Positions 3,310 to 45,483 of a DNA stretch of 64,000 nucleotides are shown here, one piece after another. Origin of the DNA: a virus (taxonomy: Duplodnaviria > Caudoviricetes); IMG/VR virus record IMGVR_UViG_3300028888_000001. One strand, 5' to 3'. The notes below the pieces were generated by a model that searched no databases, was not told where the DNA came from, and saw only the letters and a list, made by a program, of their open reading frames with translations. A program made the translations under genes and the position numbers. Each line of letters starts with the position of its first letter. The first letter of the stretch is position 1.

Positions 3310-3387
3310 CTTTTAGTTGTATATTATAAAATTGATGCTAATATAATAATAAATATATTTACATGATTAAACTCTTTAGGAGGGAGT

Positions 3388-3564
3388 ATGAAATTCAAAA
3401 ATTTTACTTATAAGATGAAAAAAGAATTATCTAAAAAGCTTAAAGATATTAACTTAGATGATTATGGGTATTCTAAAAATACACCAGAGTTTATTGAACT
3501 TATAAACAGACAAACTGGAGAAAGAAAGGTGATTTATAAAGATGCTAATTCCATTAGAGTCTGA
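3388..3564 (+). CDS. Small hypothetical protein (58 aa, not in ORF track)
   Basis: AGGAGG RBS before ATG, early-type promoter at 3317; MKFKNFTYKMKKEL...NSIRV. Confidence 0.6.
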   Translation: MKFKNFTYKMKKELSKKLKDINLDDYGYSKNTPEFIELINRQTGERKVIYKDANSIRV

Positions 3565-40690: not shown

Positions 40691-40926
40691 CTTATTGCTC
40701 TCCTTTAATTTTTTATTTATATATAATGCACATGAAGTGTATCATGTTTATAATATATAAATAAAAAATTAATTACTTAAAAGCCTTCATTATTAAGCTT
40801 TATCTCCAGTTCCGCCACCATCCAATTGATTTGATATTATATACATCAATAATATAGAGCACGGATCATCACACTTTAATAATTTTTTACCAAGTCAATC
40901 TACTTGTTTCTACTTAAAGCCTGCTT

Positions 40927-42750
40927 TTAGTCATTAAGATCTGTCAGATAATCACTAGTAACAATATCAATACCGAGTGAAAACCATTCTTTGACATTGC
41001 TAGCACTATTAACAGAGTATACGCTACAAAACATGCCGGCTTTATGAATAGTATCGATCAGTTCATGCGTTATACCGGCTCCAATATATCTATCAAAATC
41101 GATACCCCAATTATCAATTTTTGAACCTTTTACGTAGTTTATTACTTTGTTTGCGTCATCGACCGAAGCGACTACTTGCATCGTTGGTGCTTTTGTTATT
41201 CTCCTAAGAGTATCAGAACGCATCGTATCGCCGATGAACATATAATCACTATCGCAAAAACCATACTCATTGAGGATCGATACTATTTCTTTTACTTGTT
41301 CAACCGATGGTCTGATCTTCCATTCGATCAATGGAACACAGTTATAGGTTTTACAAATTTGTAAGTATTCTTGAAACGTTAGAATTTTTTGATCTGATAT
41401 GACACCAGTAGTCTGATTTACGTAATACAATTCCTTGATCTGAGCGAGCGTTAACGCGCTTACGTTGCCGGTACCGTTCGTAAGAGTATCAACTGATATG
41501 TCGTGGAAGCAGACCCATTTATTATCAAAAGTCAATCTTATATCTGTTTCTATAGCCCATGCCTTATTAATTCCGGCTGTTCTGAATGATAACTCACAGT
41601 TTCCTATCGGTTGTGAATCTGATCTCATGCCTTGATGCATTGCAAATTTAATCCTGCCATTATTCCACCATGGTAATTTATTAAATAATGTTACAGATAT
41701 TTCATCTTTCAAAGCATAATCGGTTCCAGACTTGTACGGAATAAAAGGTTTTACATAATTACTCTGTCGTAGTTGAAATTTCCTTATATGCCATGTATTT
41801 CCACCTGAACCACTTGCAGCCGCAATCGACACCTTACTTATAGTTTTATTTATATTACTTGTAAGACTAATTTCAGTCCACGATGAAGCACTATTTTCGA
41901 TGTATTTCGACATCGTACTTTCGTCGGTATAATCAAAATATATTCTAAATCCATTGCCGGTTTGAGTAGTTTCTCCGTCAGTGTATCCCTCAAACGAAAT
42001 CGTCCAAACTTGATTTTCCGAAAAAATATTTTCTAATATGGTCTTAGCGGGAATCGAATTGGAAAGACCATGGTATACATAAAATCCGTCTACTAACTCT
42101 TTTGTCCATCCTCCAAAATCAAGAAGAAAATCTTCGTCGAGTACATTTCCTGTGAATTTTGTTGTCTGTTGGATCAAATCGTTTGTATTTTTTGCCATTT
42201 TTCTTGCAATTTCATCGACGTACACAAACGACGGAGTAAAAGAAGATTCAACAGTCCCCTTATTCATCATTATATTTTTAAGGTAAAAGTTGTTATTTGT
42301 AAACGATCCAGCCTGAAAATAAATGCCTATAATGGTTTTATTAGCAGTAGATGTATACACGGTATGTGTATAAACACTTGCTCCGTTACCAAGACTTGTA
42401 CGCGAAGCAGTATTATCGGAATATACAAAGCCAATATACAATCCGCTCCCTGTTGTTCCAGCAGCGCCATCGCATAAATAATCTAACGATAACGTATATC
42501 TAGTATTAATTTCTCCATTGAATTGCATTGGCGAAGCCTGCGGGAAGCCTTTTTGGGCACGTAATGCTTGCGTTTTTACAGATCCATCACTTTGGAGCAC
42601 GAAAATATTCTCATTAACTAATGTCAAAAATGGGAAAAGATTTGTATCACTTTTTTCTGTCGATATGACCATATTCCCATTATAAGTGCTCTTTAAGTCA
42701 TCAAAAGACTGTGTTAAATCTTCCTTTAAATCTTCAAAATCGTTAGAAAG
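40927..42750 (-). CDS. Glycerophosphodiester phosphodiesterase cassette with N-terminal carbohydrate-binding-like domains (no clear native start)
   Basis: AMHQG, ETDIRLT.D...VCFHD, IEWK motifs; frame stays open 78 nt upstream of the listed ATG to the repeat site (LSNDFEDLKEDL). Confidence 0.8.
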   Translation of the reverse strand, partial: LSNDFEDLKEDLTQSFDDLKSTYNGNMVISTEKSDTNLFPFLTLVNENIFVLQSDGSVKTQALRAQKGFPQASPMQFNGEINTRYTLSLDYLCDGAAGTTGSGLYIGFVYSDNTASRTSLGNGASVYTHTVYTSTANKTIIGIYFQAGSFTNNNFYLKNIMMNKGTVESSFTPSFVYVDEIARKMAKNTNDLIQQTTKFTGNVLDEDFLLDFGGWTKELVDGFYVYHGLSNSIPAKTILENIFSENQVWTISFEGYTDGETTQTGNGFRIYFDYTDESTMSKYIENSASSWTEISLTSNINKTISKVSIAAASGSGGNTWHIRKFQLRQSNYVKPFIPYKSGTDYALKDEISVTLFNKLPWWNNGRIKFAMHQGMRSDSQPIGNCELSFRTAGINKAWAIETDIRLTFDNKWVCFHDISVDTLTNGTGNVSALTLAQIKELYYVNQTTGVISDQKILTFQEYLQICKTYNCVPLIEWKIRPSVEQVKEIVSILNEYGFCDSDYMFIGDTMRSDTLRRITKAPTMQVVASVDDANKVINYVKGSKIDNWGIDFDRYIGAGITHELIDTIHKAGMFCSVYSVNSASNVKEWFSLGIDIVTSDYLTDLND

Positions 42751-42824
42751 TGAATTAGGCTTACGCCTAATTCTATTATTTTTTGATTAATGACGTATTT
42801 TTCATTTGATCTTTCTAACGATTT
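42737..42824. repeat. Perfect 14-bp inverted repeat CTTTCTAACGATTT, candidate recombination sites
   Basis: 42737-42750 and 42811-42824; both in frame (LSND) with the divergent cassettes; internal hairpin 42752-42773. Confidence 0.8.
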
Positions 42825-44331
42825 AATAGATATAAATGAAGAATTACATCAAAATTTTCCTACATATGGTAATTTATTCACATTAGAAAATTTTACTGAA
42901 AAGAAAATTATTCTTAATGGAGAAATAACCACAAATGGTACTTCAGATGCTTACGGATATTCAGATTATATTCCGGTTATAAAAGGTAAAACGTATTATG
43001 TAAGTCATTGTTTATCAGCTCCAGGGGCATTATATGATAAAAATAAAAATTATATAAAAAATATATACACAAAACCAAGTAATATTAAATATGGAAATCC
43101 GATTACATTTGTCTGCGAAGCTTCTGGTTTTGTAAGATTAAATGTTGAACTAAAACATTTAAATTATTATGTATTTTGTGAAGGTACAGAGCCAACCAAT
43201 ATACTCCCTAGAAGAAAAATATATCATCCTGATTTATTAATAGATTCTTCGCAGATTAGCGATTATGAATTTGAAATTGAGCATGGTAATCTTTTTAATA
43301 GCAATACCGTATCTGAACTTGGCTATTATATAAATAAAAGCGGTAATATACAAGAATTAGAAAACTATGTGTATTCTGATTATATTCCAGTTAAAGCCAA
43401 TACACAATATATAATATATTTATGCCTTACCTCCCCAGGGGCAATATATAATACAGAAAAACAATATATAGGTCAAATACCTAACGATACAGCAACACAT
43501 GATTTTGTTTTTTCAGCACCAATAAATGGATATATCAGAATTAATATTCATAAAAATAATATCCACATATTTACAGTATATGAAAAAAATTATCAAAACA
43601 ATATACCATATGGTATGTTATTAATTAAAAATTTGATGATAGAAACATCACAGATTAGCGATTTTAATTATACAGTATCCAATAGTGTTTGGAAAAATAA
43701 AACCATTAGTATATTTGGTGATAGTAGAACATGGTATCATAGTAAAAGTTATAACGATAAAACAAAAACAGAGTGGAAAGATAAAGTATGTGTAGGATTT
43801 CAATATTATATGGAAAATATTTTACATTGTAATATTGATTCTCAAGGAGTTTCTGGCGACACATCAGTACAAATTTGTGAGCGCATTAAAGCATATGATT
43901 TTTCTAATACAGATGCTATCCTTATTGAAGGTGGTGTTAATGATTTTATAAAATCATCGTCTGTAACTATTGGTCAAATTCAACCAATATCTAGCAATTT
44001 TGATACTAATACAGTGTATGGTGCATATCAAAGCGCTATAGAATATTTGCTACAAAATTATCCAACTTTATTAATTTATATGGACATACCAGCTATAGCT
44101 TGGTCGTCTGCTGGAGTTTTCCCGTATGATATAGCAAAAATTAAGAGTGAAATAGCGCAATTATATAATTTACCATATATTGATTTATATAAAAAGTTAG
44201 GTATTAATGAGTTAAATAGGGATTATTACTATTGCGATGATGTTGAACAAACTAATTGGCGATTACATTTTAATGATTATGGTAATGAATTAATAGGAAC
44301 AAAGATAGCACAATTTATAAACACATATTAA
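42790..44331 (+). CDS. SGNH/GDSL esterase cassette with two tandem N-terminal beta domains
   Basis: FGDS, GVSG, GGVND and C-terminal LHFN blocks; duplicated YSDYIPV..CL..PGA.Y unit; no RBS. Confidence 0.8.
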   Translation: MTYFSFDLSNDLIDINEELHQNFPTYGNLFTLENFTEKKIILNGEITTNGTSDAYGYSDYIPVIKGKTYYVSHCLSAPGALYDKNKNYIKNIYTKPSNIKYGNPITFVCEASGFVRLNVELKHLNYYVFCEGTEPTNILPRRKIYHPDLLIDSSQISDYEFEIEHGNLFNSNTVSELGYYINKSGNIQELENYVYSDYIPVKANTQYIIYLCLTSPGAIYNTEKQYIGQIPNDTATHDFVFSAPINGYIRINIHKNNIHIFTVYEKNYQNNIPYGMLLIKNLMIETSQISDFNYTVSNSVWKNKTISIFGDSRTWYHSKSYNDKTKTEWKDKVCVGFQYYMENILHCNIDSQGVSGDTSVQICERIKAYDFSNTDAILIEGGVNDFIKSSSVTIGQIQPISSNFDTNTVYGAYQSAIEYLLQNYPTLLIYMDIPAIAWSSAGVFPYDIAKIKSEIAQLYNLPYIDLYKKLGINELNRDYYYCDDVEQTNWRLHFNDYGNELIGTKIAQFINTY

Positions 44332-44391
44332 ATCTTAATTCATTTGTATATTATATTAATAAGAATATACTCTTAAGGAGGTTTCTTATTA

Positions 44392-45417
44392 ATGTATAAC
44401 GATTTTAAAAATGAATTCATATCAGATTTACAGACATTAAATCTTAATTTAACGAAAGATCAAATGAATAAAATATTAGCGGTGCTTGACGGCACCGCTA
44501 ATAATTATGACATTTTAAATCGTGCTAGTGTAAATAGACAGAAAATGACAAATGGTATTCCACAATCTGTATACGACTATATTCAGTGCAAAAAAGCAGA
44601 AGGCCTTTCTAATGATACGCTTTATATCTATAGAATCATGCTTGAAATATTCTTTAGGGCTGTACAAAAACCGCCTGAATATATTGAAGCTCAAGATATC
44701 ATGAATTTTCTAAGGGACTACCAAATACAAAATAATATATCTAATCGTACATTAGATAAATACAGACAGTATATATCTTGCTATTTTGTCTTTATACATG
44801 ACTATGGATATATCTCTAGAAATCCATCACGTCAGGTTAAGAAAATAAAATATGAAACCAAGCCCCAAGCCATTCTTACAGAATATGAAACTGAGCTTAT
44901 TAGAGGCGCATGTAGATCAAAAAGAGAAATAGCAATAATAGAATTCTTTTTATCTACAGCTTGTCGTGTTGGTGAATTAGTTAAAGTAAAAATTTCTGAT
45001 ATAAATTGGGATACTGATGAGGTATTATTATTTGGTAAGGGCTCTAAATATGGCGTTTCATTCATAACTCCAAGATGTAGATATGCATTAGAACAGTACT
45101 TAAATTATAGAAAGCTAATCAACCCAAATGAAAATTCAGAATATCTATTTATACGGGAACGGTATCCATATACGTGCTTAACCGTCAGAGGTGTTCAAGA
45201 TATTATAGAACGATTGATGAGTCGTATTTCTGAAGTGCATAAACGTATAACACCTCATTCATACCGTAGAGCTACAAGCACTAATGCATATCTTAACGGT
45301 ATGGATCTTGAAGACATTAGAGGATGGTTAAGACATTCTGATATAAGGACTACAGAAATATATGTAAAGAATTCAACGACTCATATTCACGGAGAACATA
45401 GAAGATTTGTTCATTAA
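44392..45417 (+). CDS. Tyrosine recombinase (XerD/integrase family)
   Basis: Catalytic R (TACRVGE), K (GKG), HSYRR, LRHS, Y (TTEIY); N-terminal SAM-like domain. Confidence 0.92.
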   Translation: MYNDFKNEFISDLQTLNLNLTKDQMNKILAVLDGTANNYDILNRASVNRQKMTNGIPQSVYDYIQCKKAEGLSNDTLYIYRIMLEIFFRAVQKPPEYIEAQDIMNFLRDYQIQNNISNRTLDKYRQYISCYFVFIHDYGYISRNPSRQVKKIKYETKPQAILTEYETELIRGACRSKREIAIIEFFLSTACRVGELVKVKISDINWDTDEVLLFGKGSKYGVSFITPRCRYALEQYLNYRKLINPNENSEYLFIRERYPYTCLTVRGVQDIIERLMSRISEVHKRITPHSYRRATSTNAYLNGMDLEDIRGWLRHSDIRTTEIYVKNSTTHIHGEHRRFVH

Positions 45418-45427
45418 AAATAAAACA

Positions 45428-45453
45428 CCCCATAGGGATTGCTCCCTATGGGG
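45428..45453. terminator. Bidirectional terminator between recombinase and tail genes
   Basis: CCCCATAGGGA-TTGC-TCCCTATGGGG between convergent genes; similar hairpins near 5592, 12202, 14959, 24194, 29150, 33068, 39971, 49788. Confidence 0.75.
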
Positions 45454-45483
45454 TTATATTTCATCTTAATATTATTTTTTATA

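What the first reader, a model, noticed from the sequence alone, without database searches (positions are those of the whole stretch)
40927..45417. Recombinase-linked switch between a phosphodiesterase and an esterase cassette
Seen: divergent GDPD and SGNH ORFs, neither with an RBS, both begin at the same in-frame 14-bp site (LSND). Similarity extends further (LSNDFEDLKEDL vs LSNDLIDINEEL). An intact tyrosine recombinase with an early-type promoter follows, next to the tail tube/sheath genes. Known: GDPD and SGNH domains occur on phage tail proteins that act on teichoic acids or acetylated glycans, and shufflons swap C-termini at in-frame sites. Inference: either (a) these are silent cassettes for a constant tail-protein N-terminus carrying a third site outside the window, or (b) the 60-bp spacer containing ATG-TYFSFD inverts and donates a start to one enzyme at a time. 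This would be host-range phase variation of enzymatic receptor modules in a lytic jumbo phage.
Basis: partly seen in the sequence, partly recalled or inferred. Interest (0 to 1): 0.75.

Follow-up and report, generated by a model that had tools for sequence, protein, structure and literature searches.

The report
Parking site of a phage tail-fibre shufflon
The two enzyme genes are start-less spare tips for one tail-fibre gene that lies 152 kb away in this 313-kb phage; they are one of six such parked pairs, and a neighbouring recombinase probably swaps the tips in by inverting DNA at a 12-14-bp site, which would change what the phage attacks on its host.

Summary
A perfect 14-bp inverted repeat (CTTTCTAACGATTT, read as LSND) lies at window 42737-42750(-) and 42811-42824(+). 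It heads a GDPD frame of 607 codons and an SGNH frame of 506 codons. An intact Xer-like tyrosine recombinase follows.

The 313-kb genome holds 14 copies of the site, all with identical codons (P about 6e-24). Thirteen head frames of 506-1033 aa with no start codon and no ribosome-binding site. One lies inside a complete 1116-aa tail-fibre gene outside the window, after a 391-aa constant N-terminus. Twelve silent cassettes sit in six head-to-head pairs around the same 60-bp hairpin spacer; this window holds one pair.

Relatives carry the same N-terminus on unrelated tips. Two contigs from one metagenome are 96.8% identical up to the site and unrelated after it.

Option (b), a start codon donated by a flipping spacer, is rejected: three of the six spacers have no ATG.

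No switching event was seen, so recombinase-driven inversion is inferred. It is a dispersed, enzyme-swapping variant of the tyrosine-recombinase tail-fibre shufflon (Rin type). This scan had already found the same system from other windows of this genome.

The parts
40927..42750 (-). Silent GDPD cassette. It has 607 codons plus a stop and reads from the site (LSNDFEDLKEDL...). Two CBM-like repeats are followed by a glycerophosphodiester phosphodiesterase domain. The ATG at 42672 that gives the 581-aa ORF call is internal and has no RBS.
   Evidence: Homologues (52-56% identity) are C-terminal parts of complete tail-fibre-like proteins.
42737..42750 (-). Left copy of the recombination site, CTTTCTAACGATTT. 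The 12-nt core CTTTCTAACGAT is invariant in all 14 genome copies.
42751..42810 (.). 60-bp placeholder ('parking') spacer. It occurs at six loci at about 95% identity. It holds a 9-bp-stem hairpin at 42752-42773 followed by a T-run. Its ATG at 42790 is not conserved.
   Evidence: In one search the 88-nt unit folds at -28.6 kcal/mol, z = -8.3.
42811..42824 (+). Right copy of the recombination site, inverted relative to the left copy.
42811..44331 (+). Silent SGNH/GDSL esterase cassette. It has 506 codons plus a stop and reads from the site (LSNDLIDINEEL...). Two tandem repeats of about 138 aa (414-nt period) are followed by the esterase domain.
   Evidence: (D2, D5, D11). Homologues lie at the C-termini of tail-fibre-like proteins.
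44332..44391 (+). Leader of the recombinase gene, with RBS AAGGAGG at 44375-44381. It is 98% identical to the leader of the paralog and unique to the two genes. It is a candidate promoter or operator.
44392..45417 (+). Xer-like tyrosine recombinase 1 (341 aa), with candidate catalytic residues R192, K219, H289, R292, H315 and Y324. It has no lambda-type arm-binding domain. A paralog 83% identical lies at genome 269963-270988, also directly after an SGNH cassette.
45427..45454 (.). Bidirectional terminator hairpin (12-bp stem) shared by the recombinase gene and the convergent tail tube gene.

Best explanation
Window 40927-45417 is one 'parking' junction, plus one of the two recombinase genes, of a tail-fibre shufflon spread over the whole genome. 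The phage has a single expressed tail-fibre gene (genome 277114-280464, minus strand). Its 391-aa constant N-terminus ends in ...VTGDQLTE-LSND at the site CTTTCTAACGATTT. Thirteen other copies of the site each head a start-less frame of 506-1033 aa that encodes an unrelated tip: GDPD, SGNH esterase, metallophosphoesterase, beta-helix or unknown. The sites alternate in orientation. This divides the genome into seven cassette-bearing segments and seven segments that lie between the upstream sides of two sites. Six of the latter are the 60-bp hairpin spacer, as here, and one is a 5.1-kb segment that carries the constant part with its promoter and RBS. The Xer-like tyrosine recombinases would recombine two oppositely oriented sites and invert the DNA between them. 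That fuses the constant N-terminus in frame to a new tip and leaves the old tip parked against a spacer. To express the GDPD cassette of this window, one inversion of about 152 kb is needed. The SGNH cassette needs a flip of the 5.1-kb segment first. Two successive inversions would instead swap the 5.1-kb segment with a spacer and leave the rest of the genome unchanged. Shown here: the sites, the frames, the lack of starts, the single constant gene, the recombinases, and the breakpoint at the site in relatives. Inferred: that the recombinases act on these sites, that the reaction is inversion, and how often it happens.
For: (1) The genome has 14 sites, and the reversed control pattern gives 0-1. 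All 14 are in frame and use the same four codons, although CTT-TCT-AAC-GAT is expected for only 1.6% of LSND motifs. This gives P about 6e-24 for the 13 further copies. (2) Every site heads an open frame of 506-1033 aa. Upstream, 13 of them close within 3-19 codons, and none has an ATG with a Shine-Dalgarno sequence. The one at 279278 continues into a 391-aa N-terminus with AAGGAGG before its ATG. (3) The cassettes are mutually unrelated or only remotely related enzymes. Homologues of both window cassettes occur as C-terminal parts of complete tail-fibre-like proteins. (4) Relatives: P0002 has an N-terminus 88% identical, joined at TELSND to an SGNH tip that is absent from this genome. P0003 and P0004 share an N-terminus and differ completely after LSND. 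Their contigs come from one metagenome, are 96.8% identical over 2236 nt, and diverge directly after CTTTCTAACGAT. One contig also holds a parked pair with a 58-bp spacer. (5) The only site-specific recombinases detected are two Xer-like tyrosine recombinases, each directly downstream of a parked SGNH cassette. They have a complete catalytic set of residues, and no serine recombinase was found. (6) The layout matches the published Rin shufflon: a constant RBP part, an 11-bp asymmetric site before each variable part, and an armless XerD-like invertase (PMC6109161).
Against: The genome assembled as a single isomer. Using this window's cassettes needs inversions of about 150 kb, far larger than in any described shufflon, and possibly awkward for a genome with terminal repeats. 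The two relative contigs differ by 3.2% in the shared part, so they are two strains or two paralogs and not two isomers of one clone. No binding or cleavage of the site by the recombinase has been shown. GC skew and gene orientation show no footprint of past large inversions at the sites.
Confidence: 0.7

Rival explanations
1. Local start-donor switch. The 60-bp spacer flips between its two sites and lends ATG-TYFSFD to either the GDPD or the SGNH frame, so each pair is an independent two-state switch.
For: The spacer is flanked by perfect inverted sites and in this window carries an in-frame ATG. A recombinase gene is adjacent.
Against: Three of the six copies of the spacer read ATA ACG, with no start codon, and one has the ATG shifted by a codon. 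There is no RBS, and TGA lies two codons upstream. The spacer carries a terminator-like hairpin and no promoter above chance. The same site sits inside a complete tail-fibre gene, and relatives fuse tips to that N-terminus.
Confidence: 0.04
2. An archive with no programmed switch. The site is a conserved module boundary at which tips are exchanged only on evolutionary time scales, for example between co-infecting relatives. The two recombinases would serve another role, such as integration or dimer resolution, and the parked cassettes would be rarely or never used in one lineage.
For: No isomer was observed. The distances reach 150 kb. The relatives' shared region is 3% diverged. The recombinases are Xer-like, and the best family hit is XerA, below its cut-off. 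An XRE-type regulator lies beside recombinase 2.
Against: Twelve identical bases are too few for homologous recombination, yet they are kept at synonymous positions in 14 copies here and in a relative whose N-terminus is only about 50% identical. About 32 kb of intact frames without starts would decay if unused. The strict alternation of site orientation and the conserved spacers fit an inversion system. Both recombinase genes sit directly after a cassette.
Confidence: 0.15
3. Independent expression. The cassettes are made as free enzymes from internal or non-canonical starts, and LSND is only a shared structural motif of a paralog family.
For: ORF callers give 581-aa and 513-aa proteins, and clusters with such truncated starts exist in databases (P0123).
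Against: None of the 13 cassettes has an SD-preceded ATG in its first 200 codons, whereas the constant gene and the recombinases have AAGGAGG. The identity at the nucleotide level goes beyond what the peptide needs. The cassettes are not paralogs of each other.
Confidence: 0.06

Closest known systems
Rin shufflon of Bifidobacterium prophages (Mavrich et al. 2018, PMC6109161)
   Same: Both alter a phage tail receptor-binding protein. Both have one constant N-terminal coding part and several start-less variable C-terminal parts, each behind a short asymmetric site (rix, 11 bp, TTCCCTAACCC; here a 12-14-bp site that shares CTAAC). Both have an XerD-like tyrosine recombinase without an arm-binding domain encoded beside the variable parts.
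   Different: Rin is a compact locus of a few small, related Rv genes in a temperate siphophage, and isomers were seen in induced virions. Here there are 13 silent cassettes of 506-1033 aa from at least four unrelated enzyme families, spread over a 313-kb genome in seven slots. There are also conserved 60-bp hairpin placeholders and two recombinase paralogs, and no isomer has been observed. Homology of the recombinase to Rin was not tested.
R64 / IncI plasmid shufflon (Rci recombinase, sfx sites, pilV) - from my own knowledge
   Same: A multiple-inversion system run by a tyrosine recombinase. Its short sites are conserved on one side only and lie in alternating orientation. One constant N-terminus is joined to alternative C-termini.
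   Different: It acts on a plasmid pilus adhesin, not a phage fibre, and is a compact locus of about 2 kb. The recombinase here is not a close Rci relative: the best plasmid hits are XerA-type proteins of Firmicutes at 27-32% identity.
Gin/Cin/Min tail-fibre inversion systems of Mu, P1 and p15B (as summarised in PMC6109161)
   Same: Phage host range is varied by inverting DNA so that alternative tail-fibre C-termini join a constant part. Min uses multiple crossover sites.
   Different: Those systems use serine invertases, and none is present here. In them the variable parts flip inside one small segment. Here the segment that flips locally (5.1 kb) carries the constant part and its promoter.

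Membership tests
Shufflon / multiple-inversion system with a tyrosine recombinase (Rci-sfx, Rin-rix type) | Several copies of a short conserved site, in both orientations | tested here: met
   There are 14 copies, 7 on each strand, strictly alternating, with a 12-nt invariant core.
Shufflon / multiple-inversion system with a tyrosine recombinase (Rci-sfx, Rin-rix type) | One constant N-terminal coding part that ends in the site, with its own start signals | tested here: met
   Genome 279292-280464(-): 391 aa, AAGGAGG before the ATG, and the site in frame. It lies outside the window.
Shufflon / multiple-inversion system with a tyrosine recombinase (Rci-sfx, Rin-rix type) | Alternative C-terminal segments that start at the site, in frame and without their own start | tested here: met
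   There are 13 cassettes of 506-1033 aa. Upstream frames close within 3-19 codons, and none has an ATG with an SD.
Shufflon / multiple-inversion system with a tyrosine recombinase (Rci-sfx, Rin-rix type) | A dedicated tyrosine recombinase encoded at the locus | tested here: met
   PF00589 at E 1e-24; R192, K219, H289, R292, H315 and Y324 align with XerA. A second copy also lies directly after a cassette.
Shufflon / multiple-inversion system with a tyrosine recombinase (Rci-sfx, Rin-rix type) | Isomers: the same DNA found with different segments joined at the sites | tested here: inconclusive
   No reads were available for this genome. In relatives, one N-terminus is joined to different tips with the breakpoint at the site, but the shared part is 3.2% diverged, so they are strains and not isomers.
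Shufflon / multiple-inversion system with a tyrosine recombinase (Rci-sfx, Rin-rix type) | A compact, contiguous locus | tested here: not met
   The sites lie at 27-35 kb, 127 kb and 267-296 kb of 313 kb. Segments between sites reach 92 and 140 kb.
Serine-invertase tail-fibre switches (Gin/Cin/Min) | A serine recombinase (Resolvase, PF00239) | tested here: not met
   There is no PF00239 match in the 313-kb genome, while the control found it in 12 of 14 reference genomes.
Xer recombinases (XerA/XerC/XerD equivalogs) | A score above the NCBIfam equivalog cut-off | tested here: not met
   The best hit is XerA_Arch at 170.5 bits against a cut-off of 220. XerC and XerD score 119 and 115 against about 330. 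It is Xer-like in architecture and is not an ortholog.
GDPD (PF03009) and SGNH/GDSL (PF13472) hydrolases | A full-length domain match above the Pfam gathering score | tested here: met
   GDPD scores 80.8 bits (cut-off 23.6), covering profile positions 10-241 of 244. GDSL_2 scores 50.0 bits (cut-off 32.9), covering 1-178 of 178. Catalytic residues were not checked one by one.

The most novel reading that the evidence does not exclude
The seven segments that lie between the upstream sides of two sites (six 60-bp spacers and the 5.1-kb segment with the constant part, its promoter and three more tail-fibre-like genes) are topologically interchangeable. Two successive inversions swap the 5.1-kb expression module with a spacer and restore everything in between. 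The phage would then move its whole fibre-expression module among seven docking slots around a 313-kb genome. This would be an intragenomic recombinase-mediated cassette exchange, giving 14 enzymatically different virions without lasting genome rearrangement. The slot in this window lies right beside the tail tube and sheath genes.
Probability: 0.25. Interest if true: 0.85.

Novelty: new variant of a known kind. Interest (0 to 1): 0.7.

Why it matters
If the system is active, this would be the largest and most scattered host-range switch described for a phage. One tail protein could carry any of 14 tips from at least four enzyme classes that act on phosphodiester-linked or acetylated surface polymers. 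The phage would then change how it degrades the cell envelope, not only which receptor it binds. It would also show that a site-specific recombinase can use sites up to 150 kb apart in a viral genome. The short, exact site makes the claim directly testable by junction PCR or long reads. The site and spacer also give annotators a way to recognise 'headless' enzyme ORFs in jumbo phages as fibre cassettes and not as free enzymes.

Tried and rejected
- **Near-DNA search of the phage collection:** the 6-kb region gave no match.
- **Pattern scans of viral contigs:** the spacer-site junction gave nothing. The constant-site junction gave one hit (L014), which is a chance TELSND in a coiled-coil protein with a single site.
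- **Related loci in viral contigs:** four queries were tried. The constant N-terminus matched only a generic fibre motif. The recombinase and P0003 found nothing. The tail sheath found one 4-kb fragment.
- **Closest phage-collection recombinase:** MT836842 (36% identity) shows no comparable site system.
- **Footprints of past inversions:** GC skew and coding-strand bias per inter-site segment show no footprint of past large inversions.
- **Promoter scan:** the sigma-70 scan found no more sites than chance, so the 'early-type promoter' could not be supported.
- **MITE reading of the 88-bp unit:** rejected, because its terminal repeats are the first codons of long frames and also occur singly inside the fibre gene.
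- **Stop-codon recoding to read through the spacer:** considered and dropped, because other genes read normally in table 11.
Full report
**What is in the window**

Reading the sequence confirms two divergent frames that both begin at the same 14-bp word, CTTTCTAACGATTT (Leu-Ser-Asn-Asp in frame). One copy is at 42737-42750 on the minus strand and one at 42811-42824 on the plus strand, with 60 bp between them. The repeat extends weakly to 36 nt at 83%.

- The minus-strand frame (607 codons from the site, stop at 40927) ends in a GDPD domain.
- The plus-strand frame (506 codons, stop at 44331) ends in an SGNH/GDSL domain.
- The next gene (44392-45417) is a tyrosine recombinase with AAGGAGG before its ATG.
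- A tail tube gene and a tail sheath gene follow on the other strand.

The ORF-caller starts are artefacts. These are the ATG at 42672 for GDPD and the ATG at 42790, inside the spacer, for SGNH. Neither has a ribosome-binding site.

**The site is a genome-wide element**

The window is bases 105541-169540 (minus strand) of a 313,331-bp virus record with direct terminal repeats. That genome holds 14 copies of the site: 11 exact and 3 with one or two mismatches in the last two bases. The 12-nt core CTTTCTAACGAT is invariant.

Twelve copies form six pairs with the same 74-bp start-to-start spacing and nearly the same 60-bp spacer, at genome 27678, 34531, 126717 (this window), 266877, 272827 and 296337. 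Two copies are single, at 279278(-) and 284430(+).

Translated from the site, all 14 give open frames of 506-1033 aa. All 14 LSND motifs use the codons CTT-TCT-AAC-GAT. Under the genome's own codon usage, these codons are expected for 1.6% of LSND motifs. That gives P about 6e-24 for the 13 further copies. The constraint is therefore on the DNA, not on the peptide.

**One expressed gene and thirteen headless cassettes**

Upstream of 13 sites the frame closes within 3-19 codons. No ATG in the first 200 codons has a Shine-Dalgarno sequence.

The site at 279278 is different. It lies inside a complete 1116-aa gene whose 391-aa N-terminus (MAKTLSNYDPLVQVP...AAADAKVTGDQLTE) has AAGGAGG before its ATG. 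That N-terminus has tail-protein matches and sits among other tail-fibre-like genes.

The cassettes are not paralogs of one another. Their domains are as follows:

| Domain | Cassettes |
|---|---|
| Metallophosphoesterase | 3 |
| SGNH esterase | 3 |
| GDPD | 2 |
| Beta-helix (weak match, 22.5 bits, below the Pfam cut-off of 25.9) | 1 |
| No Pfam match | 5 |

Homologues of both window cassettes occur in other phages as the C-terminal parts of complete proteins with tail-fibre-like N-termini.

**Evidence from relatives**

Searching with the constant N-terminus found three informative proteins.

- P0002 has an N-terminus 88% identical, joined at ...TELSND to an SGNH tip that has no counterpart in this genome.
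- P0003 and P0004 share a nearly identical N-terminus (about 50% identical to ours). They continue after ...ITELSND with unrelated tips.

In the alignment, conservation stops exactly at LSND.

The contigs encoding P0003 and P0004 come from one metagenome (L060, L061). They are 96.8% identical over their first 2236 nt and share nothing after CTTTCTAACGAT. L060 also holds a parked pair of cassettes (730 and 642 aa) behind slightly degenerate sites, with a 58-bp spacer.

So the core site survives at the nucleotide level in a lineage whose fibre N-terminus is only about 50% identical, and it is the point where tips are exchanged. The 3.2% divergence means these are strains or paralogs, not isomers of one clone. 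This is evidence for exchange at the site, not for its rate.

**The recombinases**

The genome has two PF00589 genes and no serine recombinase. Both are 341 aa and 83% identical, and each lies directly after a parked SGNH cassette. Their 60-nt leaders are 98% identical and occur nowhere else in the genome. The duplicated block runs from the cassette stop to the recombinase stop, at 78% nucleotide identity overall.

The protein aligns with XerA structures, with R192, K219, H289, R292, H315 and Y324 in place. It scores below the Xer equivalog cut-offs and has no lambda-type arm domain. Its nearest plasmid and phage relatives are XerA-type proteins of Firmicutes at 27-36% identity.

The 60-bp spacer is the same element at six loci. 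Its hairpin half is identical in all six. The other half varies, and three copies read ATA ACG where this window has ATG ACG. A TGA lies in frame two codons upstream.

The hairpin (9-bp stem, then a T-run) scores as terminator-like, and the 88-nt unit folds at z = -8.3. The spacer is therefore not a start donor. It is best read as a placeholder that keeps two parked cassettes head to head and probably insulated from transcription. That last role is inferred.

**How it most likely works**

Site orientation alternates strictly around the genome. This divides it into seven cassette-bearing segments of 5.9, 6.4, 6.8, 11.9, about 45 (across the ends), 92 and 140 kb. Between them lie seven segments that sit between the upstream sides of two sites: six spacers and one 5.1-kb segment (279292-284429) carrying the constant part.

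Any inversion between two oppositely oriented sites keeps this pattern and changes which tip is fused to the constant part.

- Flipping the 5.1-kb segment alone toggles between a metallophosphoesterase tip and an SGNH tip.
- Tips in the 264-299-kb cluster need inversions of 6-20 kb.
- The GDPD cassette of this window needs one inversion of about 152 kb.
- The SGNH cassette needs the 5.1-kb flip first and then an inversion of about 158 kb.
- Two successive inversions would exchange the 5.1-kb module with a spacer and restore the rest of the genome.

All of this follows from the geometry of the sites. That the recombinases catalyse it is inferred from their position, their family and the analogy below.

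**Comparison with known systems**

The closest described system is the Rin shufflon of Bifidobacterium prophages. It has a constant RBP part, an 11-bp asymmetric rix site (TTCCCTAACCC) before each variable part, and an armless XerD-like invertase, and isomers were seen in induced phage (PMC6109161).

The present system shares that logic, and even the CTAAC centre of the site, but it differs in several ways:

- the scale (13 silent cassettes, about 32 kb);
- the content (whole enzyme domains of unrelated families);
- the dispersal over 313 kb;
- the conserved placeholder spacers;
- the two recombinase paralogs.

The 'compact locus' feature of shufflons is not met. Literature searches found no shufflon reported in a jumbo phage.

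**Relation to earlier work in this scan**

Earlier notes of this scan, made on other windows of the same genome, describe the same system and name the same closest relative. I re-derived here the count of sites, the single expressed gene, the cassette domains, the spacer and the two recombinases. For this window I added the evidence against the start-donor idea, the fused homologues of both window cassettes, and the L060/L061 breakpoint.

**Limits**

Switching itself is therefore unobserved. GC skew and gene orientation show no footprint of large inversions. The host is unknown. The enzyme classes and the recombinase's nearest relatives hint at a Gram-positive host, which is inference only.

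Noticed in passing
window 44605-44616 (+), inside the recombinase gene: CTTTCTAATGAT, an 11-of-12 copy of the shufflon core, is read in frame as LSND (AEGLSNDTLY). The paralog has LSKD at the same place, so this is probably chance.
   Followed up: partly
window 42958-43663 (SGNH cassette) and the GDPD cassette: Both cassettes carry two tandem copies of a module of about 135 aa before the enzyme domain. In the SGNH cassette the repeat has a 414-nt period (D2, D5, D11). These are likely carbohydrate-binding repeats.
   Followed up: no
genome 269309-269908 (+), beside recombinase 2 (L012 811-1410): A 199-aa XRE-type HTH regulator (phrog_8, E 1e-7) lies next to the second recombinase. It could regulate switching or hint at a temperate lifestyle.
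   Followed up: no
genome 275126-277003 (-) (L010 13126-15003): A 625-aa protein lies between two cassettes. It has a lysozyme-like N-terminal part and SH3-like C-terminal repeats, judged by eye only. It is a possible endolysin or tail lysin inside the shufflon region.
   Followed up: no
genome 284330-284429 (L011 about 3330-3429): The far end of the 5.1-kb expression segment ends with a strong terminator hairpin. It is followed by ...AAGTTACTGAA before the site, which copies the last 9 nt of the constant part (ACTTACTGAA). This may be a remnant of a second constant end.
   Followed up: no
L060 1-2236 and L061 1-2237: Both metagenome contigs begin at exactly the same base. This suggests another assembly branch point (a repeat or a junction) upstream of the fibre gene in that relative.
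   Followed up: no
window 40705-40772: A 31-nt inverted repeat, 90% complementary with a 6-nt loop and very AT-rich, lies in the gap between the 226-aa ORF and the end of the GDPD cassette (I2).
   Followed up: no
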